DNA from: a virus
Lineage: Duplodnaviria > Caudoviricetes
DNA length: 64,000 nucleotides
IMG/VR virus record: IMGVR_UViG_3300037847_002819
Coordinates: 31,890-95,889 of that record
Strand: one strand, 5' to 3'
The translations under genes and the position numbers were made by a program. The notes below the pieces were generated by a model. That model did not search any database. It saw nothing but the letters and a program-made list of their open reading frames with translations, and was not told the origin of the DNA. This document shows positions 3,881 through 40,031 of the stretch, one piece after another (the first letter of the stretch is position 1; each line of letters opens with the position of its first letter).

Positions 3881-4213
3881 TTAATCCCCTCTCAATTCTA
3901 ATAATTTTTCTAATTCAGCCTTTCTTTTCCTATAATCATCATCCATAGCGGTTTCTAATTTTTTAAGACTAACAGTTGTTTGATTAAGTAATTTTAGAGT
4001 ATTATTCACATATCCCTTAAACATCGTGTTTTTATATCTTGATAATTCTTTTTCAGCATCCCTTATACTATCCTCTAAATCATCAAAGTCAGCCTTTTCC
4101 AAAAACTTCAAATATCCTTCTAATGAACGAACATGGCTTTTATTTGCATTCTTAGTTTCTCCAAATACTTTTGTAGTAACTCTTTTCTTTTTAATCTCAT
4201 CTTCCCATGTCAT
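3881..4213 (-). CDS. small coiled-coil protein, MxW motif family (MTWEDEIKK)
   Basis: ORF; motif; first gene of the array. Confidence 0.8.
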   Translation of the reverse strand: MTWEDEIKKKRVTTKVFGETKNANKSHVRSLEGYLKFLEKADFDDLEDSIRDAEKELSRYKNTMFKGYVNNTLKLLNQTTVSLKKLETAMDDDYRKRKAELEKLLELRGD

Positions 4214-4350
4214 AATAACCCTTTTCCTGTTTATTGCTTAAAATAAAAACGATTTTTCAAAAAATGTGGCGGAATTTTTTTGGCACTAGCGTCAACTTTT
4301 TTTTATTAATTAATGTATTCCCAGAATAAAATCTTAATCATTTAATATAA

Positions 4351-4575
4351 TCATTTAATATTTAATGTAGTTTGTCTTGTATTTGGTGAATAAACATCTG
4401 CTAATTTAGATTTAATCTCTTTAAGTTTCTTTGCTATTTCTTTTAATTTAACCTTGTTATCTTCAGTGGTTTGTATGTTCTTTTTACTTGTATTTGATTT
4501 AATATCCGAAACTATTTCTGTTATTTGTTGATTAATACCTTGTATCATGCTTTGTATGTCATCAGCACTAGTCAT
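4351..4575 (-). CDS. hypothetical coiled-coil protein
   Basis: ORF with TTATATG-like box upstream. Confidence 0.6.
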   Translation of the reverse strand: MTSADDIQSMIQGINQQITEIVSDIKSNTSKKNIQTTEDNKVKLKEIAKKLKEIKSKLADVYSPNTRQTTLNIK

Positions 4576-4808
4576 GTATATCTCGGATTAGGCGAGGGTT
4601 GTAAAACATATAATAATGCCGGTTTAATGGCGAAATAATTAACCTTCAAATGTTAATATTGGTTAATTAACCGTTAAATACAGGCATTTTAATGTTAATA
4701 TAAAAAATAAAAAATTTGGACAAAGCCATATGGTTGTATAAATAATAATATCAGCCAATTAATGTTAAAAGCATATGGTAGCAACTTTGGTAATGAGGAA
4801 CGAATGGC

Positions 4809-4845
4809 TACCTTATATGAAGTCCGAGGTCGAATAGTAGTGGCT
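4809..4845 (+). promoter_or_regulatory. archaeal TATA promoter and shared leader of paralog 1
   Basis: ACCTTATATG box followed by TCGAATAGTAGTGGCT, which recurs identically at 5595-5610. Confidence 0.65.
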
Positions 4846-4891
4846 TCGGGGATTGAAGCATTAATCTAACACATTTAGGAGTTGATTAAAA

Positions 4892-5380
4892 ATGGAAATA
4901 GAAAAATGGAATGATAAAGTTGCCATGATTATTGCATGGTTAAAGGAAAATGACGCAGGTGCTATGGGACAGGTTATTCAAGTTAATATTGAAGCCGGTA
5001 ATGAAGCACAAACAGATGAAGATAGGAATAGATTTTGGGAGGCAGTTAGAGCCTTGTGTAAAACACTTCCAAATAGCCCTATTAAGAAAGGTCGTGGTTC
5101 AACACTACCTAATGAAGTCCAAGCGGTTTTAGATTCAATATCTGATGAAGTCGCTCAAGCCGCTAGTGATTTTTTTGCTATTGGTGACATGAATATGCTT
5201 CTTTTGAAGCATGGAAAGAGTGGCGGTGGTTTATTCACTGCTGACGAGTATTCTGCATATATGTCACAAACAGTAGTTAATTCTCTCAAGAGGAGATACA
5301 AAGACAAAATTTGGGATGGTAGTCGTCAAGGACTATTAACCCAAGCATTCCCCGTTGAGGAGGTTGACGAGGAAGAATGA
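4892..5380 (+). CDS. hypothetical protein, paralog family P (copy 1)
   Basis: AGGAG RBS; shares DEDRNRFWEAVRALCKTLPNSPIKKGRGSTL with copy 2; acidic tail. Confidence 0.9.
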   Translation: MEIEKWNDKVAMIIAWLKENDAGAMGQVIQVNIEAGNEAQTDEDRNRFWEAVRALCKTLPNSPIKKGRGSTLPNEVQAVLDSISDEVAQAASDFFAIGDMNMLLLKHGKSGGGLFTADEYSAYMSQTVVNSLKRRYKDKIWDGSRQGLLTQAFPVEEVDEEE

Positions 5381-5415
5381 TTGATGCTTTAATCCCCAAG
5401 CCCCAGATTCACCAA

Positions 5416-5503
5416 ATAACCCGCATAGGACTGATAATTCCGATTCTTATATTTATTATCTGTATGATTAATCAGCCTATGCGGGTTATGCCTTATTTTT
5501 TTA
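5416..5503 (+). terminator. stem-loop plus T-tract
   Basis: ATAACCCGCATAGG...CCTATGCGGGTTAT 14-bp inverted repeat followed by a T run. Confidence 0.7.
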
Positions 5504-5659
5504 TTTTAGGGTAGTAAAACCAAAGTGTATTCATTACATGAATATTTATTACCATATGGTTGTATCTTTGAGCAACCCTACATATAGTAGCACATCGAAT
5601 AGTAGTGGCTCAAAGGGATTGAGTCGGTATTGATGGAGTCAATACAGGAGATGAAAAGA

Positions 5660-6190
5660 ATGGAACAAGAAAAGTGGATAACAAAGTCTAACGAAATTAG
5701 AGCATGGCTTGAGCATAATGATGCAGGGGCTATGGGAGCAGTAATAACAGTAAATCTAGATGCTGGCGATTCAGCCGCATCCGATGAAGACAGAAATCGT
5801 TTTTGGGAAGCAGTTCGGGCATTATGCAAGACCCTCCCAAACTCGCCAATAAAGAAAGGTCGTGGCTCAACGCTAGACCCAGCAATTCAAGCCGTTGTGG
5901 ATTCTGTGAGCAATCGCATTCAAAATGCTTTTGTCACAATTTCTGACGCTGAATTGCTACTTGAAGTAATGCTACCACATGGTAAAACAGGTGGCGCATA
6001 CGCTAACATTGAAGCATTGGCTTCTGATATGGCAACAAAGGCTGTAAGAGTCCTAAAGGCGGCATTGAAAGATGGTCGCTGGGATGGAACAATGAGCGAT
6101 AGTGGACTAACAGGCATGACTCCGCCTATGAAGTCTGATTCCTCTAACGAGGAAGCAACGGAAGAATCCCAAGAGGAGGAAACCGTCTGA
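5660..6190 (+). CDS. hypothetical protein, paralog family P (copy 2)
   Basis: Start reassigned to MEQEKW by alignment with MEIEKW of copy 1; AGGAGATGA RBS; promoter CCCTACATATAG at about 5576. Confidence 0.9.
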   Translation: MEQEKWITKSNEIRAWLEHNDAGAMGAVITVNLDAGDSAASDEDRNRFWEAVRALCKTLPNSPIKKGRGSTLDPAIQAVVDSVSNRIQNAFVTISDAELLLEVMLPHGKTGGAYANIEALASDMATKAVRVLKAALKDGRWDGTMSDSGLTGMTPPMKSDSSNEEATEESQEEETV

Positions 6191-6280
6191 TACCGATTCA
6201 ATCCCTTTAAGCCCCATACGATTCCTACGGGCATCCGGTAACACCTGTTAAAATTACAATTGAATCTGAACATAGGTCAA

Positions 6281-6359
6281 TGCGGAAGAGTAGGAAAGGG
6301 GAAACAGTGAGAAAACCAAAGGACACTCACTGTTTCCCCTTCCGCCCACTATTTTTTTT
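6281..6359 (+). terminator. stem-loop plus T-tract
   Basis: GGGGAAACAGTGAG...CTCACTGTTTCCCC inverted repeat then T8. Confidence 0.75.
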
Positions 6360-6578
6360 AATAGGGTTGTGTCAAATACTGCGTATTACCAAAGTATGAC
6401 ACAACCATATGGTAGCGACTTTGTGCTACCTTATCTGTTAAAAAAATAAAGATGGATTTTTATACAGAATCCTAACTGTTGCCGCCATCTCAGGCTCAGG
6501 CTTAGGCGACTATACCACCGTATAGTCTCGTTACATTTTGTCCGGTGGGGAACGCATAAAACCACATTCTTTGGACTA

Positions 6579-6737
6579 TCATACATATCTTCTTTTAGAA
6601 GTCAAGGGTTTATCCGGATTTAAAGCACACCCAATGGCAACTTTATCTTTATTCCGTTCATTCATTTTAGCGACATAACCTGCCCACCAAACTTCTCCAG
6701 CCCTAATTTCTGCTCTCATTTTACTTCTTCTATTCAT
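6579..6737 (-). CDS. 52-aa hypothetical protein (MNRRSKMRAEIRAGEVWWAGY...)
   Basis: Manually found; GGAGATGA RBS; downstream hairpin GACTATAC/GTATAGTC and T-tract. Confidence 0.5.
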   Translation of the reverse strand: MNRRSKMRAEIRAGEVWWAGYVAKMNERNKDKVAIGCALNPDKPLTSKRRYV

Positions 6738-6883
6738 TTAATCATCTCCATAATTATCCGGTTCATTATCCTTAACATAAGTATCATACAACATAACCCA
6801 TTCACAGTCGTTACAACAAATGAAAACACTACCTGCATAACTCTCTTCTAATTCAGTATTTGCACTACCGCAAGCATCACAAG

Positions 6884-7120
6884 TCATTCTTCCTCATCCC
6901 CCATATATTCTAGGTATTCTTCAAACTGCACATATGATACGGTTGCAATCGTTAATGCGTTAATGTTCATTGTATGTGAAGTATTAGGATTCTGATAACC
7001 TTCATTACGCCTCTTCCATACATGAAACATTATTTCTTTATCCTCGAAATAACTAACCACTCGCTTTTCAATCGTATTGTCCGGATGGACTATTGTTCCC
7101 CACTTTACTTTGGTTTCCAT
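6884..7120 (-). CDS. hypothetical protein, probably leaderless
   Basis: ATG 7120 lies about 20 nt downstream of CCTTACATATAG (minus strand 7152-7141); ends GDEEE. Confidence 0.65.
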   Translation of the reverse strand: METKVKWGTIVHPDNTIEKRVVSYFEDKEIMFHVWKRRNEGYQNPNTSHTMNINALTIATVSYVQFEEYLEYMGDEEE

Positions 7121-7212
7121 GTTGTTACAAATTAAACGACTATATGTAAGGTTTGACAAAGTTCAAACCATATGGTTGAGTAATGGTTCTTTTGAATTAA
7201 TGGATAACCATA

Positions 7213-7590
7213 AAAAAAATTTAGGCGAATCCAGCGAGAGAGATAGCCACCGGCTTAGTTTTCGACTCTCTCGCTGAATTCTAAAGGGTGTCAGCCTAGA
7301 AGATACCGTTTCCGGTTCTAGGAAGGTGAGTGGATTATCTTGCACCACTAAGTTTGTAACTCAATTTACTGCTTGTTCAATTGAGGGTCACACAACCTTC
7401 TAATGTATTCATCAATTGGTGATTGATGCCCTTTTGGGGAACATACGCTTCAAGAACCACTACCATACTATCCAATAGGACTTCCGATAATGGGTGAAAC
7501 CCGCACCACACGGTTAAGAAGTGCATTACGCCGCTACTAGCGTTGTTCTGCCACTGACTATCCAGCAAAGGTAGCGAACCCTTGCTGAAC
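7213..7590 (-). ncRNA. candidate large structured non-coding RNA
   Basis: Own TATA-like box and T8 tract; many nested helices; GAAA tetraloop; G-U wobbles fit the minus strand; no credible ORF. Confidence 0.6.
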
Positions 7591-7712
7591 AATACTATAT
7601 TCATCAATACTTTATCTAGGGTTTATTCAAAAGACTCAACCATATGGTAAGATGTGCGAATCTTTTGATGCTTCGCAGATATTACCATAAAAAAAATAGG
7701 TGATGGCCGATT

Positions 7713-8102
7713 TTACTCGGCCACCACCATTAATCCATGACTAGGTAGTGTTTTCAACAATCCCCAAATTGCCTCCAAATATCTAGGGTGTAATTGTTCC
7801 TTCCACAAACTAACAGTAAATTGGACTACATCATACAGATTGCTTTCATACACAATCCGATAATCAATCACATTATCAATTCCTTCGTTTATAACTCTGA
7901 TTTTGAATTTGGTCATAGAATCCTCATTTGTTTGTTCCTCTTCGTATCTGCTTGGAATACCTTGTTCTGCACGATTACATTCACCACAGGTAGCGATGAT
8001 TTCATAATCTGCATATTCATCTTCACAATCACCTAGTCCATAGTGACCTATTGATATTGATTCTCCACAGTTGTTCTTGCATGATATATTTGTCCATGTC
8101 AT
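7713..8102 (-). CDS. hypothetical protein with Cys motifs (CKNNC, CGEC), putative Zn-binding
   Basis: ORF alone in a cassette with CCTTATGATAAAG promoter and T-tract. Confidence 0.7.
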   Translation of the reverse strand: MTWTNISCKNNCGESISIGHYGLGDCEDEYADYEIIATCGECNRAEQGIPSRYEEEQTNEDSMTKFKIRVINEGIDNVIDYRIVYESNLYDVVQFTVSLWKEQLHPRYLEAIWGLLKTLPSHGLMVVAE

Positions 8103-8225
8103 ATTAATATCAATTCAATTACTTTATCATAAGGTAAGTTTCAAAGACTTACCATATGGTTGTAACTTTGAGGATTAGCGTAGCCAACCCTATATGAAAT
8201 AGGGTAATTCATAGTATTGGTTCTT

Positions 8226-8495
8226 ATGGGATTAAGCATAGAAATTGAATTAGAGAACGGGCAGTGGAGTGGGACTCTCACTATGTCTGCTTGTGAAGCC
8301 GCAAAAAACTACCAACCAGAAGTTTTACGATTTTTGGCAAAAGAGTTGAAGAAGAATAGAAGCCTAGTTATCACAACAATGCATATGCGTGATAGCAGAA
8401 TTCGAGTAAACGGAGTTTGGAATTCAGCGCAGTTGAACAGATTCTCCCGTTTCCACGACCAAATGTTTAGAGAATACAACAAAAACGAGTCGTGA
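8226..8495 (+). CDS. hypothetical protein
   Basis: CCCTATATG promoter at about 8188; hairpin terminator follows. Confidence 0.65.
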   Translation: MGLSIEIELENGQWSGTLTMSACEAAKNYQPEVLRFLAKELKKNRSLVITTMHMRDSRIRVNGVWNSAQLNRFSRFHDQMFREYNKNES

Positions 8496-8507
8496 AATTA
8501 AGAATTA

Positions 8508-8567
8508 GGGGTGTCGAATCCGGAGTTAGTTGTTTTATCCGGATTCGGCATCCCGCACCATTTTTTT
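8508..8567 (+). terminator. stem-loop plus T-tract
   Basis: GGGTGTCGAATCCGGA...TCCGGATTCGGCATCCC then T7. Confidence 0.75.
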
Positions 8568-8769
8568 AGGGTTCTCGTTCTTCACTTCGTTACCCCAAAG
8601 TCCCACTATCACCAAGAAAGATACTATTAGAGAGCGATTAGTTGAAGGTGATTTATTGATTCTAAAATATCAACACATTATTTTGGATTGTTTTCAATTG
8701 ACCGTATAAGAAATATGTATAGTCATAAAATACTCATATGATATACCATATAATATATGATGCAAAAAA

Positions 8770-9080
8770 TGTTTCCACTCAATTTTCCAACCGGAATCGG
8801 AAATAAAAATTAAGAAACTTAGGGGTTGTGCAACATAACCCCTAAGAAATTAATATTATTCTATTATTCCATTATTCCATACCATACATACACAATCCTA
8901 CCCCCTCTCTTTGATTTGCCCTCTCTCTCTATGAGATAGTGACCCCCCATTTTGAGTGGAATAATGGAATAATGCCAAACCCTCTAGAAACTCAAGGGTT
9001 GTGCAACATAACCTTGAAGTTTCTAATTCCATTATTTTTCCGAATAATTTTCCGGTGGAATAATGTATTTGAGTGAAAAT
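8770..9080. repeat. repeat/palindrome cluster, candidate replication origin or packaging site
   Basis: Two hairpins sharing the 18-mer GGGTTGTGCAACATAACC (8823, 8996); tandem ATTATTCC and inverted GGAATAAT repeats; no ORF. Confidence 0.55.
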
Positions 9081-9143
9081 TAATTATCGCTTATTAAACA
9101 CTAATTCTGAACAGGTTCGCAAGTAGCCGAAAATACAGATAAT

Positions 9144-9177
9144 TGACTCCCTTTATATGGTGTTAGCATATGGAGAG
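9144..9177 (+). promoter_or_regulatory. promoter class TGACTCCCTTTATA (copy 1)
   Basis: 29/34 nt identical to 15883-15916; contains a TTTATA TATA box. Confidence 0.75.
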
Positions 9178-9212
9178 TCTGCCCCCAAAATGGCGGGGTA
9201 GGATATGATAAT

Positions 9213-9689
9213 ATGGATGATGTAAAGTGGGACAGTATCGTTATTGAAACGAATGAATACCTAGAAACAGATGCGATTGATGGTGCGTTGAAACAAGTGG
9301 TTCAACTACACCTTGAAGTCGGTCAAAATAACCCGAATGAAAGAGATGCTGCGGCAAATGCGCTAAAGGCACTATTGAAAGGCCGTGATGGTTCACCATT
9401 TGGCCGCAAAGGTGCAAAGAGCGCAGTTCCAACAAGTGTTAGAGTAGTAATTGACCGCATTTGCGGTGTCGTTGAAGAAGCGGCAGTTAACTACTACAAC
9501 CATGATGGAATTATGGCGGCTCTTTGTCTTCGTCATGCTAAATCCGGTGGAGGACAATATGAGTCTGCTGAAGATTATGCAAAGGCACAGGCAAAGAAAG
9601 CACGAACCCAACTAAGTAAGATGTTCAAAGAACAAACTTGGGATGGGAGCGTTGAGTCGCTTTTGTCAAGTGAATCTTCTGAAGAATGA
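9213..9689 (+). CDS. hypothetical protein, paralog family P (copy 3, divergent)
   Basis: Shares KW, GA.KQV.Q, A..ALL, SP..KG, H.KSGGG.Y and WDGS motifs with copies 1 and 2. Confidence 0.85.
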   Translation: MDDVKWDSIVIETNEYLETDAIDGALKQVVQLHLEVGQNNPNERDAAANALKALLKGRDGSPFGRKGAKSAVPTSVRVVIDRICGVVEEAAVNYYNHDGIMAALCLRHAKSGGGQYESAEDYAKAQAKKARTQLSKMFKEQTWDGSVESLLSSESSEE

Positions 9690-9736
9690 ATTTAATTTAA
9701 TTCTGAAAGATTTGGTTTAACCCTAATGGGTCTTTT

Positions 9737-9776
9737 GCCCCTCACAGGAGTTCGCTCTTGTGGGGGGCTTTTTTTA
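9737..9776 (+). terminator. GC-rich hairpin with TTCG loop plus T7
   Basis: GCCCCTCACAGGAG TTCG CTCTTGTGGGGGGC TTTTTTT. Confidence 0.8.
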
Positions 9777-9821
9777 TTGTATGATAAGAGGCAATAGATT
9801 CAGATTAATTTATTAAAAAAC

Positions 9822-10004
9822 GGACTTCGGGCGACCTGACCCTCACTATAAGTAGTCCGGCCACCCTAGACAACGGTGAAAAGGGTTGTCGCACTAATCG
9901 CTCTTGACAAGCAATTGTGTGACATTCTTTCATTATGGAAGAAGTTGAGAGACATGGGGCTTTAGGAGAATATGTCTGATTTATCAGATTGTCTCTCCTT
10001 CTTC
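9822..10004 (+). ncRNA. candidate structured RNA directly upstream of the tRNA
   Basis: Consecutive stems: GGACT/AGTCC, ACCCT/AGGGT, GCAC/GTGT, GAAGAAG-GAGAGACA/TGTCTCTC-CTTCTTC. Confidence 0.4.
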
Positions 10005-10010
10005 CGCTTT

Positions 10011-10172
10011 GGGCTATTGGCGCAGTCAGGTAGCGCAACGGGCTTTTAATGAGGTTTTATCGAAGTAATAAATGAGGACTTGCTCAATTTTCGATTATGT
10101 GTTATACTTTCTCATAACTCATTTTCCTCAAAAGATACCCGTTGGTCGTGGGTTCGAACCCCACATAGCCCG
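10011..10172 (+). tRNA. tRNA-Lys(UUU) with an 88-nt intron at position 37/38 (10049-10136)
   Basis: Acceptor GGGCTAT/ATAGCCC; D-arm GCGC/GCGC; anticodon stem ACGGG/CCCGT; T-arm GTGGG-TTCGAAC-CCCAC; BHB formed by CTTT/AAAG helix with TAA and ATA bulges. Confidence 0.93.
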
Positions 10173-10263
10173 CTTATTCAAGTGTAAATTTTTACACATT
10201 TTCACCGCCTAAGAAATTGGGCGTTTTCACATTCCCTAAAAATAACAATAGGAGGAAATAAAA

Positions 10264-11697
10264 ATGATAACAGGAACAAAAGAGCAAGAAGCAATTTGGA
10301 ATGAAATAGCAAATGGCACAAGTCACATTATTGTTGACGCAGGTGCAGGTGTTGGTAAAACATTTACAATTGTTGAAGGAGCAAATAGAGACAATGGACA
10401 AAAGAAAGCATTTTTGTGTTTTAATAAATCCATTCAGAAAGAATTAGCAGAAAGACTGCCAGATGATGTGGAAGCAAAGACTTTCCATGCATTAGGTTTT
10501 GCTGCATTAAGAAGTGCTGGAATTAGAACTAAGGTCAATAATTTCAAATTGAGAAATATTATTGATGATATGCTTGGTCGTGATTTTTACGCACAACCAT
10601 TAACTAAACTAATTAGTTTGATTAAAGGTTCAATGGTTGACGGTGACGATAAGAAGTCTATTTACAGATTGATTGATGAATATAATATTGAATTCAAATC
10701 AGACCGTGAAGAGTTAATCGCTATTGATAGTATTCCAGCCATTCTTAATCAATGCAAGAGAAATACTGCTATGATTGATTTTGATGACATGATTTGGCTA
10801 CCTTTAGTATTAGATATGCCATTACCTGTTTTTGATACATTATATGTTGATGAAGCGCAAGATTTCAATGAAATGCAAAGAGAATTGATTTCTAGATGTG
10901 TTGCAAACGGCAGATGTATTATTGTGGGCGACCCTAATCAAGCAATTTATGGTTTCCGAGGAGCAGATTCAAATTCAATGGATATGTTTGTCAAGAGGCT
11001 AGAAAAAGGTGATAGAGAAATCAAGCGTTTTTCTTTGAGTTTGACTTGGAGATGTCCTAAAACAGTCGTTGCAGAAGCAAACAGATATGTCAAGAATTTT
11101 ACTTGCCGTTCTGATGCAATAGATGGAATGGTTGTTGAGAATGCACCGTTTAATCCACAGGCAAACGATATGGTTCTATGCAGATATAATGCACCTTTGG
11201 TTTCAGCGTTTTACGATTTAATTTTACAGGGCAAGTCTGCCTATGTTCTAGGTCGTGACATGACTAAAGGACTGATTAATGCAGTTAGAAAAATTACTAA
11301 GAATGATAATATGGGTTCAGAAGAGTTTTCTGAATTACTAGCACAAGACTTCAAATTTACTTATGATAAGTTGGTTGCGGCTGATAAGGTCAATCAAGCA
11401 AACAACCTTGAAGATAAGTATGAATGTTTGAAGATTTTTGCTTCTATGGCTACTACTGTTGGTGGAATTGTAAATGAAATCAAGAGAGTATTCGATAATA
11501 ATGAAGAAGGAGAGATTATGCTTTCCACTGTTCACAAGGCTAAAGGTCTTGAGGCTGATAATGTATATATCTTGGCTACGGACAGAATGCCTCATCCAAA
11601 GGCATCTAATCCTAGAGAAGAAAGAAACATTTGCTATGTAGCAATTACAAGAGCCAAAAGAAATTTGTTTTATTGTGGGCCAAAACCAAAGAATTGA
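10264..11697 (+). CDS. uvrD: UvrD/Rep-type superfamily 1 DNA helicase
   Basis: AGAGVGKT Walker A, VDEAQD, VGDPNQAIYGFRGA, TVHKAKGLE, YVAITRAK. Confidence 0.93.
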   Translation: MITGTKEQEAIWNEIANGTSHIIVDAGAGVGKTFTIVEGANRDNGQKKAFLCFNKSIQKELAERLPDDVEAKTFHALGFAALRSAGIRTKVNNFKLRNIIDDMLGRDFYAQPLTKLISLIKGSMVDGDDKKSIYRLIDEYNIEFKSDREELIAIDSIPAILNQCKRNTAMIDFDDMIWLPLVLDMPLPVFDTLYVDEAQDFNEMQRELISRCVANGRCIIVGDPNQAIYGFRGADSNSMDMFVKRLEKGDREIKRFSLSLTWRCPKTVVAEANRYVKNFTCRSDAIDGMVVENAPFNPQANDMVLCRYNAPLVSAFYDLILQGKSAYVLGRDMTKGLINAVRKITKNDNMGSEEFSELLAQDFKFTYDKLVAADKVNQANNLEDKYECLKIFASMATTVGGIVNEIKRVFDNNEEGEIMLSTVHKAKGLEADNVYILATDRMPHPKASNPREERNICYVAITRAKRNLFYCGPKPKN

Positions 11698-23532: not shown

Positions 23533-24021
23533 ATGAATGGTAAATTTAATACAGTAATGAAAAGAATAGATTTAGAAGCAAATAGATTAAAGGCTGAATT
23601 ATACATAGATGCTTATTATGAACAAGGTATGGAAATAAAAGATTTATTTGAACATATTTGGTTTGCTTCAACAGAAATACTGAATGGTTTAGAGGTTCAA
23701 GTTGTTATTGATTCTAATGACGCTATTCATATTTCGTCAGGTTCAGCAGGTTATGTTGATTTTCAAATTGACCCTGTTGGAATGAAATTACCGATTAAGT
23801 GCTGGATTCACACACACCCATTCGGTAGTGCTTATTTCAGTGGAACTGATATTAGAACAGTTAGTATTTGGCAACCATTAATGAAGACTGCTTATGTGTT
23901 AGGTGGAGATGGGCATTATGGTTCTTGGAATCAAAAAGAACCTTATCTATTAGATATATACCGTAACCATGAATATGAAAGAACACAAGTTTGGGTTAGA
24001 AAAGGAGATGAAGAAGAATGA
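23533..24021 (+). CDS. JAB1/MPN+ (JAMM) metalloprotease
   Basis: N-terminal Glu (LEVQ) and WIHTHPFGSAYFSGTD, matching HxH...S..D. Confidence 0.88.
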   Translation: MNGKFNTVMKRIDLEANRLKAELYIDAYYEQGMEIKDLFEHIWFASTEILNGLEVQVVIDSNDAIHISSGSAGYVDFQIDPVGMKLPIKCWIHTHPFGSAYFSGTDIRTVSIWQPLMKTAYVLGGDGHYGSWNQKEPYLLDIYRNHEYERTQVWVRKGDEEE

Positions 24022-36385: not shown

Positions 36386-38041
36386 ATGATAATTAGTAGG
36401 TGTTTAGATGGAAAACACATATACAAATCTTGGAGAGAGAATAACGAGAAAAAATTCGAATTGGAAAGATTTAGACCCTACTTTTATGTGAAGGAAAACG
36501 AAAAGGAACATACAACATATTCTCCTTCTAAGTATATCAAACGAGAGTTTGAATATGAAAGAGGAGAATGGGTGAATCTAGATGGTGATAGATTAAAGAG
36601 AGTATATGTTGAAAACTCTTTTGATGTTTTTTCTGCTAGAAAAATGTTTAAGCAAACATATGAAGCAGATGTTCCATATACATTTAGATATGCAGTTGAT
36701 TGTATTTCGGAAATGCCGGAGTATAAAATGCGTAAATGGTATTGGGATATGGAATGGCAACAAGGAGGAGAACATCATAATAAAATTACTACTATTGTAA
36801 TGTATGATAATTATGATAAGGACTATCATCATTGGGTTTGGTTTCCTAATAAATACAAACATGAAATTGAAAAAGCAAAGCCAAAATATGTTTTTGGTTC
36901 TGAAAAAGAAATGCTTGAACATTTCATTAACACAATGATAGATAAAGACCCCGATATGTTAATTGCGTGGTTCGGTAACTTCGCTGATATACCTAAATTA
37001 CTTGAAAGGTGTTGTGCTTTAGGAATTAACCCTAATAGAATGTCTCCGATTAACCGGATAGATGGTGTTAAACAGACTAAGAACGGCTTCAAATATACTA
37101 AAGGTGAAAAGGGGTTCTCGCCAATAGAACAACCCATAGGGGGTCGCATAACCCTCTCATTAGACATGGCTTTTGAAAGACAATGGAATGACTCGCAAAG
37201 AGGAACATTACCTTCTCTATCTTTGGACTATGTATCTGAATCTTTACTTAACAAGAAGAAGTTAGTTTCAGAAAAGTTTCCCGACCCAAACGAATTCTAT
37301 CGTAGGGCTTGGTTAGAAGATACTGAAACTTATTTGCAGTATGCTCTAAAAGATGTTGAATTGATTGTTGAAATAGATGAAACTAATTATTGTAGCGAAG
37401 CGATTATTGCACTACAAAGATTACTGAAAGCACCATTTGATGCTTGTTTTTATGCAAGCCATATGGGTTCTATTTACTTCATGCGTAATGCTTGGTGGAA
37501 AGCACCAACAGGTAATAAGAAAGCAGAAAAGAAGTCTTATCAAGGGGCTATGATTTATGACCCGTTGAGTGAAAACACTAACGGATTACATCTTAATGTG
37601 GCGGCTTTTGATTATGCAGGTCTATACCCTGCTATGATGATTTCAAGAAACATTTCGTTTGAAACTAAAAGCGAAGAACCTACCGAGTTTGGTGTGAACA
37701 TATTGACTCCTAGAGATTTTAGCGAGGTAACAGAAACAAAGATGCTATACTACAAAACCGATAAACTAGGATTGTTGCCTAAGTCTGTATTAGAACTCAA
37801 AGAGTTGCGAAATGAATATAAGCGACTTATGCGTGAGGCGAGAGAGAACAATAATAACAGTGACTATATCAAGTGGTATAACAATCAAATGGCGGTAAAG
37901 AGACTAATGGCTTCATTTTACGGAATCATTGGCTATACCGGTTTTAGTTGGGCTGATGCTGATTTAGCGGCTAGTATTACTGCTAGTGCTAGAGAAGCAA
38001 TTAGATTGGCGGCTTTTAAGGCAAAGGAGATGAATGTATGA
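36386..38041 (+). CDS. polB: family B DNA polymerase, N-terminal part (exonuclease, motifs A and B)
   Basis: PYFY, YEADVPY..RY, WDME (ExoI), SLDYVS, Y...DV (ExoIII), FDYAGLYP, Q.AVK.LM.SFYG. Confidence 0.93.
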   Translation: MIISRCLDGKHIYKSWRENNEKKFELERFRPYFYVKENEKEHTTYSPSKYIKREFEYERGEWVNLDGDRLKRVYVENSFDVFSARKMFKQTYEADVPYTFRYAVDCISEMPEYKMRKWYWDMEWQQGGEHHNKITTIVMYDNYDKDYHHWVWFPNKYKHEIEKAKPKYVFGSEKEMLEHFINTMIDKDPDMLIAWFGNFADIPKLLERCCALGINPNRMSPINRIDGVKQTKNGFKYTKGEKGFSPIEQPIGGRITLSLDMAFERQWNDSQRGTLPSLSLDYVSESLLNKKKLVSEKFPDPNEFYRRAWLEDTETYLQYALKDVELIVEIDETNYCSEAIIALQRLLKAPFDACFYASHMGSIYFMRNAWWKAPTGNKKAEKKSYQGAMIYDPLSENTNGLHLNVAAFDYAGLYPAMMISRNISFETKSEEPTEFGVNILTPRDFSEVTETKMLYYKTDKLGLLPKSVLELKELRNEYKRLMREARENNNNSDYIKWYNNQMAVKRLMASFYGIIGYTGFSWADADLAASITASAREAIRLAAFKAKEMNV

Positions 38042-38872: not shown

Positions 38873-39153
38873 ATAGATATGAATTGGATAAATTAAATGA
38901 AGAAATTAAAAGACTTACTATGGAAAATGAAGGTCTTGCTAATAGAATAGATGAATTGGATGAGAAGATTGAAAAACTGCAAAATACAATTGAAAGATTG
39001 GAAATAGAGTTGGATAGGCAATATAATGAGGATTCGCAAACATACAATGTAGCAAAAGCGATTCACGAAATGCAAAACGACCTACAAAAGTTGCATCCTG
39101 AATTAACATTCAACAATCTAATATATGCACCCGATAAGGTGGGCGGAGTATGA
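38869..39153 (+). CDS. coiled-coil protein
   Basis: Heptad pattern; GGTGA RBS. Confidence 0.7.
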   Translation: MNRYELDKLNEEIKRLTMENEGLANRIDELDEKIEKLQNTIERLEIELDRQYNEDSQTYNVAKAIHEMQNDLQKLHPELTFNNLIYAPDKVGGV

Positions 39154-40031
39154 AAGTAGTTTATGGGCATACAGATTCAATCTATGTTCAGATTGATTCA
39201 GTTGAAAAGGCTCAAACTGCTATCAAAGAAATAGAAGCAAGTGTTAGAGAACATTTTCCTAATGTATTAGGTTTAGATGAACACCCTGTTCAGTTAGAGT
39301 TTGAAAAGTATTTTTCTGCTTTAGGCGTAGGAACGGTAAAGAATCGTAATGCAGGGTTAGTATCTTGGGAAGATGGAGTATGGTTGGATGAACCAAAATT
39401 CACCATGACAGGTTTTACTGCTAAAAGAGTTAGTGAAACTAAAATGGCAAAGGAGGTTCAAACTACTGTGCTAAAAATGTGGGTGAATCAGAATACTCAA
39501 GACGAAATAAATAAGTATTTACACAATACTTATTCTTCTGTTCTGAATGGCAAAATACCTATTAATTCTATTATTAAAAGGTCTAGACTAAAGAGCAATA
39601 GGCTTACTGTAAAATGTCCGGATTGTGGAACTAAGCATAGCATAAAAGAACACATTAAATGGTGTAAAAAATGCGGTGTGGAAGGTAAATTATTCAGAAC
39701 ATTAGACAATGCAAAACCCTCTTTTGGTGAGGGTATTTCCGGAATATTATATGCTTGGCAAAATACAGATGCCGAGTTTGATGATTCATATTTATTTATG
39801 AAAGTAAGGAATTTGCATAAGACATATACTCATCCTTTAACGGGAGAGAAGCGAAAAGCCGAATATATTTCCGGCACAACCTATGCAGACTTTGAGAGTT
39901 ATGAACCGGATTGGCGACACTACGCTGAACAGGTGATAAAGAAGGCCGAGCCTATTTACAAGGCGATGGATTGGGATTTGTCAAGCATTAGAACAGGTAA
40001 AATACAAAAGAAATTAGATGATTGGTGGTAA
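39150..40031 (+). CDS. polB: family B DNA polymerase, C-terminal part (motif C, thumb, Zn ribbon, PIP box)
   Basis: VVYGHTDSIYV, LEFEK, K.R.AG, CPDC...CKKC, QKKLDDWW. Confidence 0.92.
   Translation: MKVVYGHTDSIYVQIDSVEKAQTAIKEIEASVREHFPNVLGLDEHPVQLEFEKYFSALGVGTVKNRNAGLVSWEDGVWLDEPKFTMTGFTAKRVSETKMAKEVQTTVLKMWVNQNTQDEINKYLHNTYSSVLNGKIPINSIIKRSRLKSNRLTVKCPDCGTKHSIKEHIKWCKKCGVEGKLFRTLDNAKPSFGEGISGILYAWQNTDAEFDDSYLFMKVRNLHKTYTHPLTGEKRKAEYISGTTYADFESYEPDWRHYAEQVIKKAEPIYKAMDWDLSSIRTGKIQKKLDDWW

What the first reader, a model, noticed from the sequence alone, without database searches (positions are those of the whole stretch)
4726..8200. Repeated symmetric double-hairpin DNA element (CCATATGG core) partitions the region into short cassettes
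Seen: cores at 4726, 4771 (variant), 5552, 6405, 7168, 7640, 8152, all intergenic; I saw no perfect copy elsewhere. Reading outward from the core on either strand gives GGT-stem...CTTT(T)G...stem-ACC(C/T/A)TA. Stem sequences differ but stay paired: GGTAGC/GCTACC (4771, 6405 right), GGTTG/CAACC (5552, 8152 right), GGTTTGA/TCAAACC (7168 left), GGTAAGT/ACTTACC (8152 left), GGTTGTGTCA/TGACACAACC (6405 left), GGTAA/TTACC (7640 right). The outer ACCYTA runs into a TATA box where a gene starts or into a poly-T terminator where one ends. Cassettes lie in both orientations. Inference: a covarying cruciform/ssDNA structure acting as a recombination site (by analogy to integron attC or T4-type PeSL elements), a hairpin-dependent early promoter, or a DNA-entry signal. 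No recombinase is recognisable in this window.
Basis: partly seen in the sequence, partly recalled or inferred. Interest (0 to 1): 0.88.

Follow-up and report, generated by a model that had tools for sequence, protein, structure and literature searches.

The report
Hairpin-flanked palindromes bounding mobile viral gene cassettes
In an abundant ocean virus of archaea, a repeated DNA site made of a 10-letter palindrome between two small hairpins marks the exact points where single-gene units are inserted, lost, moved or flipped between related viruses, which resembles bacterial integron cassettes and phage T4 shuffling motifs but has not been described for these viruses.

Summary
CCATATGG occurs 7 times in the window (0.78 expected), 6 of them in 4726-8159. 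A half-element pattern (TATGGT-stem-CTTTG-stem-ACCnTA) hits 11 times, only in 4774-8192, and nowhere else in the complete 95.9-kb genome.

The virus fits magrovirus group B (GroEL, split PolB, RNR). Related viral contigs carry the same arrays at the same place: 47 of 49 loci, 360 cores. Stems differ between copies but stay paired (swap test p=2e-11; base pairs 70-82% paired against 39-49% shuffled).

Comparing relatives shows the function. Four exact cassette insertions or deletions, one core-to-core inversion of the window's P2 cassette and one translocation all have their junctions inside the core. The array holds 317 mostly single-gene cassettes, each with its own TATA box and terminator, in 95 protein families (66 singletons).

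No tyrosine or serine recombinase, Y1 transposase or Hjc is detectable in the genome.

Best reading: these are cassette recombination sites read as folded DNA, and the enzyme is unknown. The main rival is a PeSL-like regulatory motif that recombines as a by-product.

I class it as a new variant of a known kind (integron attC, T4 PeSL, HGTV-1 motif). My searches found no description of it for magroviruses.

The parts
4700..4738 (.). Array boundary element: A-rich run, TTTGGACAAAG, core CCATATGG (4726-4733), TTGT. It has no left hairpin.
   Evidence: The same variant (AAAGCCATATGGTTGT) occurs in 33 of 48 related loci and is the leftmost core in 32.
4771..4815 (+). Variant core GCATATGG (4771-4778) plus the right half-hairpin GGTAGC...GCTACC, then TTATATGA, the TATA box of P1.
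   Evidence: The 4726 and 4771 cores are joined by an imperfect inverted repeat (I1).
5507..5580 (.). Full double-hairpin element, core 5552-5559.
   Evidence: Folds as two adjacent hairpins, z -2.46. It is one end of the cassette that is inverted in L133.
6362..6433 (.). Full double-hairpin element, core 6405-6412.
   Evidence: z -4.25. It is the other end of the P2 cassette inverted in L133.
7147..7212 (.). Full double-hairpin element, core 7168-7175.
   Evidence: z -2.24.
7617..7689 (.). Full double-hairpin element, core 7640-7647.
   Evidence: z -5.25. It is the left end of the 512-bp joint seen in run X6.
8130..8192 (.). Full double-hairpin element, core 8152-8159.
   Evidence: z -1.53. 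It is the right end of the 512-bp joint in run X6.
8567..8616 (-). Degenerate half-element (TAGGGT...CAAAG...ACC) after the T-run of ORF 8217-8495. There is no palindromic core.
   Evidence: Relaxed regex and direct reading.
4816..5506 (+). Cassette P1: TATA box, gene 4892-5380 (P family, 162 aa), terminator hairpin 5416-5489 and T-run.
   Evidence: An RNA-library contig covers 4842-5390.
5581..6361 (+). Cassette P2: TATA box, gene 5660-6190 (P family), terminator hairpin 6296-6341 and T8.
   Evidence: Inverted core-to-core in L133.
6434..7146 (-). Cassette holding a short operon of small ORFs (6579-6737, 6738-6887, 6884-7159) read leftward from the TATA box next to core 7168.
   Evidence: ORF 6738-6887 has a 56% identical homologue in L133.
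7213..7616 (-). Cassette with no convincing ORF. Candidate structured RNA.
   Evidence: Weak manA-RNA match at 7323-7587 (28.3 bits, gathering score 55.2). An RNA-library contig covers 7288-7544 at depth 48. A homologous piece lies in the opposite orientation in L122.
7690..8129 (-). Cassette with gene 7713-8102 (129 aa, no known family) and a hairpin plus T8 terminator at 7699-7728.
   Evidence: The cassette is skipped by a contig joint 7638->8151 in DNA run X6.
8193..8566 (+). Cassette with ORF 8217-8495 and terminator hairpin 8508-8554.

Best explanation
The elements are the junction sites of a gene-cassette array in the early or hyperplastic region of group-B magroviruses. The array lies between the leftward block of small genes and the rightward replication module. 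Each site is a 10-bp palindrome (ACCATATGGT) flanked on both sides by a small hairpin with a conserved base (TAtGGT/ACCyTA), a conserved C-TTT-G apex and a free but paired middle.

Shown: recombination crossovers fall inside the palindrome. A unit of [right hairpin - promoter/gene/terminator - left hairpin - core] can therefore be inserted, deleted, moved or, because the core is its own reverse complement, flipped, and this always regenerates complete sites.

Inferred: pairing is kept while stem sequence drifts, so the site is most likely read in a folded form, either single-stranded during replication or extruded and protein-stabilised. That comparison is recalled, not tested.

The outer ACCyTA also serves as the start of the TATA box when a gene leaves the site, so each cassette travels with its own expression signals.
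For: Restriction and enrichment.

Conservation in relatives: 22 of 117 pattern-scan loci have 2 or more halves. Of 49 loci found through the neighbouring P gene, 47 carry 2-13 cores, all upstream of that gene except 2 stray cores. That gives 360 cores and 694 distinct halves, and 509 halves have CTTTG within 31 nt against a 7.3% background.

Covariation: a copy's own 3' arm folds better than swapped arms of similar length (-5.8 against -3.2 kcal/mol, 83% of 86 copies, p=2e-11, RNA parameters). Pairs 1-3 beyond GGT/ACC are paired in 82/70/74% of copies against 45/39/49% shuffled, 0 of 1000 shuffles reach this, and several pair types occur. In a gapless alignment of 15 copies, 88.7% of cells are paired against 79.2% shuffled (0 of 500), and slid controls give 29-41%.

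Crossovers at the core: there are four exact indels of 173, 397, 370 and 438 bp, in L148/L149, L161/L159, L142/L138 and L134/L138. The window's P2 cassette is inverted core-to-core in L133, and the outer hairpins stay with the flanks. A P cassette is translocated between L009 and L096. Of 36 HSP ends in array zones, 10 lie within 15 nt of a core centre against 6.3% expected (p=5.6e-5). A contig joint 7638->8151 in DNA run X6 shares the 10 core letters on both sides (side only 20 nt).

Cassette nature: 317 cassettes, median 489 bp, 95 protein families with 66 singletons, and families found in both orientations. Each cassette has its own TATA box and its own terminator, separate from the element hairpins.
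Against: No tyrosine recombinase, serine recombinase, Y1/HUH transposase or Hjc resolvase profile hits the complete genome. PHROGs and Pfam give nothing for the flanking genes. A dedicated enzyme is therefore hypothetical.

Several hairpins are thermodynamically weak, from -1.3 to -3.3 kcal/mol, and one has z +0.46. Only 10 of 36 alignment breakpoints are at cores.

Exact junctions at a 10-bp identical repeat are also what rare homologous or microhomology recombination would leave. In one high-identity cassette pair (L150/L160) the identity begins at the ORF start rather than at the core.

No excised circle or single-stranded intermediate was observed.
Confidence: 0.6

Rival explanations
1. 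PeSL-like regulatory motif. On this reading the element is mainly a transcription unit boundary, and cassette shuffling is only a by-product of ordinary homologous recombination between repeated motifs, as proposed for T4-type PeSLs and for the HGTV-1 motif. The boundary role could be an operator for a dimeric regulator on the ACCATATGGT palindrome, an insulator or roadblock between back-to-back units, and an upstream promoter element.
For: The hairpin's 3' end is continuous with the TATA-like box and sits where BRE would lie. An RNA-library contig starts at 4842, about 26 nt past that box (contig ends are weak evidence). A perfect 10-bp palindrome is typical of dimeric DNA binders (general knowledge). 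All sites lie in one co-regulated-looking region at the divergence of the two transcription arms. No recombinase was found. PeSLs show the same combination of promoter, stem-loop and indel end points (PMC2839356 abstract and section 13; PMC4122927 abstract). A passage in PMC3950731 reports a TATA plus inverted-repeat motif before HGTV-1 ORFs.
Against: A duplex-binding regulator gives no reason for compensatory changes in stems. Hairpins are equally frequent on terminator sides (253 of 346) and promoter sides (256 of 348). The distance from core to TATA varies from 22 to 47 nt. Cassettes already have separate terminators (hairpin plus T8) before the element. Only about 10-12 bp are identical between copies, which is little substrate for homologous recombination, yet the junctions are exact.
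Confidence: 0.25
2. Replication-origin or priming signals. On this reading the array of hairpin-flanked palindromes at the cumulative GC-skew minimum is the viral origin (ORB-like repeats) or a set of single-strand initiation sites for the viral primase.
For: The array sits at the genome-wide cumulative GC-skew minimum (about 40 kb of 95.9 kb) and at the divergence of the two gene arms, next to the replication module. Folded single-stranded DNA signals are known for priming (general knowledge).
Against: The number of sites varies from 2 to 13 between relatives, and unrelated genes lie between them. Sites are gained and lost together with cassettes. Skew here may simply follow gene orientation. 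A separate nested inverted repeat with an AT-rich tract at 8772-9079 was noted by another first-stage reader as an origin candidate; I did not test it.
Confidence: 0.06
3. RNA-level signal. On this reading the hairpins act in read-through transcripts as processing or termination structures.
For: Covariation is equally compatible with RNA pairing. Intergenic hairpin processing sites are known in phage early regions (general knowledge).
Against: T-run terminators precede the hairpins for incoming genes, and TATA boxes follow them for outgoing genes, so the predicted transcripts exclude them. The conserved loop reads CTTTG on the outward strand on both sides, so no single transcript direction sees the same motif. 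No U-run follows the hairpins.
Confidence: 0.04
4. MITE- or REPIN-like selfish repeat that inserts by itself between genes.
For: The element is an extragenic, paired and inverted set of hairpins, which superficially resembles REP doublets (recalled).
Against: Copies are not near-identical, since the stems all differ. They are confined to one array. Indels between relatives always carry cargo plus one site, never a naked element. No Y1 transposase was found.
Confidence: 0.02

Closest known systems
Integron attC sites and gene cassettes (bacteria)
   Same: Both are arrays of mostly single-gene cassettes at a fixed platform with highly variable content. In both, the recombination site is conserved in structure, with only short conserved motifs and variable paired stems. 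Crossover falls in a short conserved core so that sites are regenerated. There is also a distinct site at the array boundary, which is attI-like in position.
   Different: No IntI or other tyrosine recombinase was found in the genome. The core is a perfect palindrome (ACCATATGGT), not GTTRRRY. The site is two separate hairpins flanking the core, not one long bulged hairpin. Cassettes carry their own promoter and terminator and occur in both orientations. The host is an archaeal virus.
PeSL (promoter-early stem-loop) motifs of T4-type phages (PMC2839356 abstract and section 13; PMC4122927 abstract)
   Same: Both are intergenic composite motifs with a promoter and a stem-loop, concentrated in a hyperplastic, ORFan-rich early region. 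Insertions, deletions and replacements between close relatives end in the motif. Cassettes are self-contained 'regulatory cassettes'.
   Different: PeSL stem-loops are the terminators and sit at varied positions relative to a sigma-70 promoter. Here the terminators are separate, the promoter is a TATA box, and there is an extra invariant palindromic core between two covarying hairpins where the crossovers map. PeSL exchange is attributed to homologous recombination. Mini-circles were shown for PeSLs and not here.
Conserved TATA-box plus inverted-repeat motif before ORFs of halovirus HGTV-1 (Sencilo 2013, known to me only through a passage in PMC3950731)
   Same: It is an archaeal tailed virus related to magroviruses, and the motif combines a TATA-like box with an inverted repeat in front of many small ORFs. 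It was likened to PeSLs and to genome shuffling.
   Different: The strict half-element pattern has 0 matches in the 143,855-bp HGTV-1 record. I could not see the original description, so the architecture and any evidence for crossovers there are unknown to me.
Folded single-stranded recombination or promoter sites: the CTX-phage attP(+) used by host XerCD, and the N4 virion-RNAP hairpin promoters (both recalled, not tested)
   Same: They are small DNA hairpins recognised by structure plus a few bases. A host-encoded enzyme could explain why no viral recombinase is found.
   Different: No Xer-type site, integration event or virion RNA polymerase was examined or found here. These are analogies only.

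Membership tests
Integron (IntI / attI / attC) | An IntI-type tyrosine recombinase encoded next to the array | tested here: not met
   PF00589 searched in six frames over the complete 95,889-bp genome gave 0 matches. The control rang in 14 of 14 genomes.
Integron (IntI / attI / attC) | Cassette boundaries at the attC core GTTRRRY within one long imperfect hairpin | tested here: not met
   Boundaries are at ACCATATGGT between two separate short hairpins. The attC consensus is recalled.
Integron (IntI / attI / attC) | Promoterless cassettes in one orientation, expressed from a platform promoter | tested here: not met
   Cassettes have their own TATA-like box and terminator and lie in both orientations.
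Integron (IntI / attI / attC) | A variable cassette array at a conserved platform, with structure-conserved and sequence-variable sites | tested here: met
PeSL motifs of T4-type phages | A repeated intergenic motif combining an early promoter with a stem-loop, concentrated in a hyperplastic region | tested here: met
   A TATA-like box abuts the hairpin. The elements are confined to one ORFan-rich array. The promoter type differs (archaeal TATA rather than sigma-70).
PeSL motifs of T4-type phages | The stem-loop is the transcription terminator of the upstream gene | tested here: inconclusive
   Separate hairpin plus T-run terminators lie before the element. Whether the element hairpins also terminate cannot be tested here.
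PeSL motifs of T4-type phages | Indels and replacements between close relatives end in the motif | tested here: met
PeSL motifs of T4-type phages | Mini-circles formed by exchange between neighbouring motifs | not testable with these tools
REP / REPIN / MITE repeats | Many near-identical copies dispersed over the genome, with an associated Y1 (RAYT) transposase | tested here: not met
   The stems all differ and the copies are confined to one 3.9-kb array. PF01797 gave 0 matches.
Magrovirus group B (genome context) | Bacterial-type GroEL, split family-B DNA polymerase and ribonucleotide reductase in a tailed-virus genome of about 100 kb (Philosof 2017 passages) | tested here: met
   GroEL-type chaperonin. 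PolB in two ORFs, 36386-38041 and 39150-40031. RNR and ATP-dependent ligase. Tail tube protein. Genome of 95,889 bp. No tree was built.

The most novel reading that the evidence does not exclude
Group-B magroviruses carry a previously unrecognised structure-specific site-specific recombination system. It would be a viral, integron-like cassette platform in Archaea. Its sites are double hairpins around a palindromic crossover core that are read as folded DNA. Its recombinase would belong to no known family, or would be a hijacked host enzyme. The ever-present, multi-copy P protein family is a candidate partner, as are the unannotated flank genes.
Probability: 0.35. Interest if true: 0.92.

Novelty: new variant of a known kind. 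Interest (0 to 1): 0.8.

Why it matters
Magroviruses are reported to be among the most abundant viruses of the surface ocean (Philosof 2017 passages), and their hosts are uncultured. A defined site where single genes are swapped, inverted and lost explains how these viruses turn over their early (probably host-takeover or anti-defence) genes. It also gives a simple sequence handle (ACCATATGGT plus hairpins) for cataloguing that accessory gene pool in metagenomes.

If a dedicated enzyme reads the folded site, this would be the first cassette-capture system of the integron type outside Bacteria, and a new structure-specific recombination tool. If the exchange is only homologous recombination at a regulatory motif, it still extends the PeSL principle from T4-type phages to archaeal viruses, with much sharper junctions. 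It would also leave open why a regulatory motif needs compensatory base pairing.

Tried and rejected
Covariance model. Model R1, built from 15 gapless halves, found only 5 of the 11 window halves (the short ones), plus one hairpin at 23917-23945 inside an ORF. It added nothing over the regex, so I did not use it on the relatives.

Rfam. No family matches the elements. The only hits in 4000-10400 were the tRNA, a sub-threshold manA match and two weak hits.

P family function. Pfam found 0 families and PHROGs 0. The AlphaFold model (pLDDT 87) had no Foldseek PDB match at E<=0.001. VIA-align returned only generic three-helix bundles at Z about 8 or lower. The ESM Atlas gave no usable hit, and tblastn against the phage collection gave no match. 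Its role therefore stays open.

Cellular genomes. All were single chance-like matches in unrelated taxa, and none had 2 or more strict halves. This says nothing about the host.

HGTV-1. It has no copy of the half-element pattern.

RNA libraries. Contigs of runs X18 and X20 lay on P1, P2 and the no-ORF cassette and on none of the elements. Absence of cover in contigs is not evidence, and I do not use it as such. Contig ends of run X8 at 6430, and the loose ends at 4702/4703 and 4738 in X6 and X8, may only reflect assembly breaks at repeats.

CATATG as a restriction target. The hexamer is not avoided outside the array (34 copies), while many other palindromic hexamers are absent. I found no support for a nuclease-avoidance explanation of the core.

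High-identity cassettes on divergent backbones. Only two candidate pairs turned up. In the better one (L150/L160, 90.7% against 65-69% backbone, inverted) the identity begins at the ORF start and not at the core, so it is not clean evidence for core-bounded transfer.

Literature. 'magrovirus' gave 22 papers. The main texts of PMC5434244, PMC11706807 and PMC10160649 contain none of promoter, palindrom-, hairpin or intergenic. The searches found nothing on such arrays in archaeal viruses. Supplements are closed and could hold relevant annotation.

Full report
1. THE OBSERVATION

The octamer CCATATGG occurs 7 times in the 64-kb window, where 0.78 is expected, and none of 100 dinucleotide-preserving shuffles reaches 7. 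Six copies lie at 4726, 5552, 6405, 7168, 7640 and 8152. The seventh, at 37459, is inside the PolB gene and has no neighbouring hairpins.

Reading outward from each core on either strand, a regular expression for TATGGT-(2-25 nt)-CTTT(T)G-(2-30 nt)-ACCnTA finds 11 half-elements, all between 4774 and 8192. That gives five full double elements (cores 5552, 6405, 7168, 7640, 8152) and one single half (4774-4815). A composite pattern spanning both loops and the 10-bp palindrome matches 5 times against 0.00 expected.

Folded as single-stranded DNA, each double element gives two adjacent hairpins (z -1.5 to -5.3). The single halves range from -1.3 to -12.5 kcal/mol, with z at or below -2 in 7 of 11 and one at +0.46. 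The structure is real, but several copies are weak.

2. GENOME CONTEXT

The window is bases 31890-95889 of a 95,889-bp virus record that CheckV rates complete. Its two ends overlap, as in a circular or permuted assembly. In the whole genome the elements occur only in this one array.

The array sits where a leftward gene arm and a rightward gene arm diverge, and at the minimum of the cumulative GC skew.

The gene content matches the published description of group-B magroviruses (passages of PMC5434244). It includes a GroEL-type chaperonin, a PolB split into two ORFs, a ribonucleotide reductase, an ATP-dependent ligase and a tail tube protein, and an intron-bearing tRNA. I built no phylogeny.

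3. ANATOMY

Each half is a hairpin with three parts. The base is conserved in sequence (TA-t-GGT pairing with ACC-y-TA). The apex is C-TTT-G, often extended to GC-TTT-GC or AC-TTT-GT. The middle of the stem varies. The left hairpin ends in ACCATA and the right one begins with TATGGT, so the two share the central TA of the palindrome ACCATATGGT.

After the outer ACCyTA there is one of two things. Where a gene leaves, there is a TATA-like box (for example TTATATGA or CTACATATAG), followed about 25-35 nt later by a Shine-Dalgarno or start codon. Where a gene arrives, there is an A-run, which is the T-run of the incoming gene.

Incoming genes have their own terminators, a GC-rich hairpin plus T7-T8, before the element. 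The element hairpins are therefore a third component beside promoter and terminator.

The copy at 4726 lacks a left hairpin. It is a conserved array-boundary variant (A-run, TTTGRAACAAAG, core, TTGT), present in 33 of 48 related loci and leftmost in 32. A degenerate half without a core lies at 8567-8616.

4. RELATIVES

Of these, 22 have two or more strict halves, 3 have one and 92 have none; those 92 are chance hits of the loose pattern.

Because a roughly 160-aa protein family ('P', three copies in the window) was the commonest neighbour (29 members in 18 loci), I searched with a sub-alignment of its helicase-proximal members. The first attempt with the full alignment failed; the repeat is.

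Of the 49 loci returned, 47 carry 2-13 cores, all upstream of that gene apart from 2 stray cores. The two loci without cores have under 700 nt of upstream sequence. After I dropped 4 near-identical loci, the array zones hold 360 cores and 694 distinct halves. CTTTG lies within 31 nt of the core in 509 of them, against 7.3% for random 45-nt windows, and equally on the two sides: 256 of 348 left and 253 of 346 right.

5. COVARIATION

Among 92 distinct halves, the 5' arm joined to its own 3' arm folds better than when joined to 3' arms of similar length from other copies. The means are -5.8 and -3.2 kcal/mol, the copy's own arm beats the mean swapped arm in 83% of the 86 copies tested, and Wilcoxon p = 2e-11 (RNA energy parameters).

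I counted position by position on 87 distinct copies. The first three pairs beyond GGT/ACC are Watson-Crick or G-T in 82, 70 and 74% of copies, against 45, 39 and 49% after shuffling partners, and 0 of 1000 shuffles reach the observed values. Several pair types occur at each position, for example T-A 32 and A-T 31 at the first. The pair next to C-TTT-G is formed in 67% against 43%.

On a gapless 15-sequence alignment, the pair-counting tool gives 88.7% paired cells against 79.2% shuffled (0 of 500). The covariation score is 0.232 against 0.097 (0 of 500), and slid controls give 29-41%.

Pairing deeper in long stems is not above chance in my simple register, probably because of bulges.

6. WHAT THE SITES DO: COMPARISON OF RELATED ARRAYS

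In contig pairs that are 86-97% identical, four indels are exact:

- L148 has 173 bp between cores 2991 and 3164 where L149 has one core.
- L161 has 397 bp between cores 4010 and 4407 where L159 has one core.
- L142 has 370 bp between cores 5219 and 5589 where L138 has one core.
- L134 has 438 bp between cores 4677 and 5115 where L138 has one core.

In each case the extra unit is [right hairpin - cargo - left hairpin - core], and the outer hairpins are those of the unoccupied site.

The window's P2 cassette is inverted in L133 exactly from core to core. Window 5552-6095 and 6352-6413 align to L133 3281-2728 and 2493-2430 on the opposite strand, while the flanks are colinear. At hairpin level, the break lies between the left and the right hairpin of each site, which is inside the core.

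In L122, the closest relative, a piece of the no-ORF cassette and a distant homologue (30% amino-acid identity) of gene 7713-8102 lie in the opposite orientation but in the same order. This suggests cassette-wise flipping. An orthologous P cassette sits on opposite sides of a three-gene block in L009 and L096.

Over 9 independent locus pairs that gave alignments (11 were chosen; one gave no HSPs), 10 of 36 alignment ends inside array zones lie within 15 nt of a core centre against 6.3% expected (binomial p = 5.6e-5), and 18 of 36 lie within 60 nt against 24.6%. The other ends are not at cores.

In public DNA run X6, whose contigs mostly match at 99% or above (15 of 21 laid), a contig joins 7638 to 8151, and 10 letters fit both sides. 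Depth over 7712-7945 is 0.12, against 2-7 in most neighbouring bins. The shorter side of that joint is only 20 nt, and the tool warns that such joints can come from repeats.

7. THE CASSETTES

There are 317 core-to-core segments, with a median of 489 bp and a range of 37-1611. Of these, 269 have an ORF of 40 aa or more. These ORFs fall into 95 families, 66 of them singletons. The largest is the P family, with 80 members in 43 loci: 23 on the strand of the anchor gene and 57 opposite. Three further families occur in both orientations. One window cassette has no convincing ORF and looks like a structured RNA.

8. MECHANISM

Shown: the sites are the junctions of cassette insertion and deletion, inversion and translocation. 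The crossover interval is the palindromic core. The hairpins are under selection for pairing.

Inferred: the site acts in a folded state, and a dedicated activity recognises hairpin base, loop and core. A palindromic core explains why both orientations occur and why complete sites are always regenerated.

Against a dedicated system: Pfam profiles for tyrosine recombinase, serine recombinase, Y1 transposase and Hjc find nothing in six frames of the complete genome, with positive controls ringing. The flank genes and P proteins match nothing informative.

The main rival is that the element is a regulatory motif, with shuffling as a by-product of homologous recombination, as proposed for PeSLs. 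That rival does not explain compensatory stem changes, the equal presence of hairpins on terminator sides, the variable core-to-TATA distance, or how exact junctions arise from about 10 bp of identity. I give 0.60 to the recombination-site reading and 0.25 to the PeSL-like reading. The remainder goes to origin or priming, RNA-level and selfish-repeat readings.

9. COMPARISON WITH WHAT IS KNOWN

The system works like an integron array in three respects: a structure-conserved site, a short crossover core and a boundary site. It is not an integron: there is no IntI, the core and hairpin architecture differ, and cassettes carry promoters and lie in both orientations.

It works like T4-type PeSL shuffling (PMC2839356 abstract and section 13; PMC4122927 abstract). 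It differs in promoter type, in having separate terminators, and in the palindromic core with two covarying hairpins.

A TATA plus inverted-repeat motif before ORFs of halovirus HGTV-1 has been likened to PeSLs (passage in PMC3950731). The original paper was not available, and the HGTV-1 genome has no copy of the present pattern.

In the three magrovirus papers I searched, the main texts contain none of promoter, palindrom-, hairpin or intergenic, and further searches found no description of such arrays in archaeal viruses. Supplements were closed.

10. VERDICT

The enzymology and the physical state of the site are unknown. I class it as a new variant of a known kind and rate its interest at 0.8.

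Noticed in passing
window 10011-10172: A tRNA gene (Rfam 53.6 bits; ARAGORN missed it) carries an insert of about 88 nt. Contigs of DNA runs X6 and X8 join 10048 to 10137, so related strains carry an allele without the intron.
   Followed up: partly
window 7213-7620 (minus strand): This cassette has no convincing ORF. It gives a sub-threshold manA-RNA match at 7323-7587 (28.3 bits, gathering score 55.2). A metatranscriptome contig covers 7288-7544 at depth 48, with adapter directly after 7544. It is probably an expressed structured RNA carried as a cassette.
   Followed up: partly
window 4892-5380, 5660-6190, 9213-9689 and 80 cassette copies in 43 related loci: The P family comprises all-alpha proteins of about 160-190 aa with invariant W6, P63, G67 and G143, HGKSGGG-like and WDG motifs, and an acidic C-terminal tail. 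It is the commonest cassette cargo, and one fixed copy lies next to the UvrD helicase. The AlphaFold pLDDT is 87. There is no Pfam, PHROG or fold match.
   Followed up: partly
whole genome (G000): The genome strongly avoids many palindromic hexamers: CCATGG 0 against 14 expected, TGCGCA 0 against 13, ACATGT 1 against 13, TTTAAA 9 against 78. CTATAG, GATATC, GTATAC, CTTAAG, AGATCT and TGATCA are all 0 outside the array. CATATG (34) and CAATTG (50) are common. This looks like restriction-site avoidance.
   Followed up: partly
window 23917-23945: A hairpin with the element's base (TATGGTTCTT...AAGAACCTTA), but without CTTTG and without a core, lies inside ORF 23533-24021. The covariance model scored it 20.2 bits. 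It may be chance or a relic.
   Followed up: no
window 36386-38041 and 39150-40031: The family-B DNA polymerase is split into two ORFs about 1.1 kb apart, as published for magrovirus group B1. The lone non-array CCATATGG (37459) lies in the first part.
   Followed up: no
genome ends (G000 1-60 and 95830-95889): The first and last roughly 60 bases of the record overlap, so the 'linear' record is a circular or circularly permuted assembly. The cumulative GC skew has its minimum at about 40 kb (the array) and its maximum at about 77 kb.
   Followed up: no
window 4820-4880 and 5590-5650: The 5' leaders of P1 and P2 share a conserved stretch (TCGAATAGTAGTGGCT...GGGATTGA), and related loci have TTGCTTCGGGG-like leaders about 25-30 nt after the TATA box. 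Another first-stage note proposes long 5'/3' stems around these mRNAs. I did not test that.
   Followed up: no
window 8772-9079: This is a nested inverted-repeat, ORF-free stretch between the array and the fixed P gene, flagged by another first-stage reader as a possible origin. It is partly conserved, and partly inverted, in L133.
   Followed up: no
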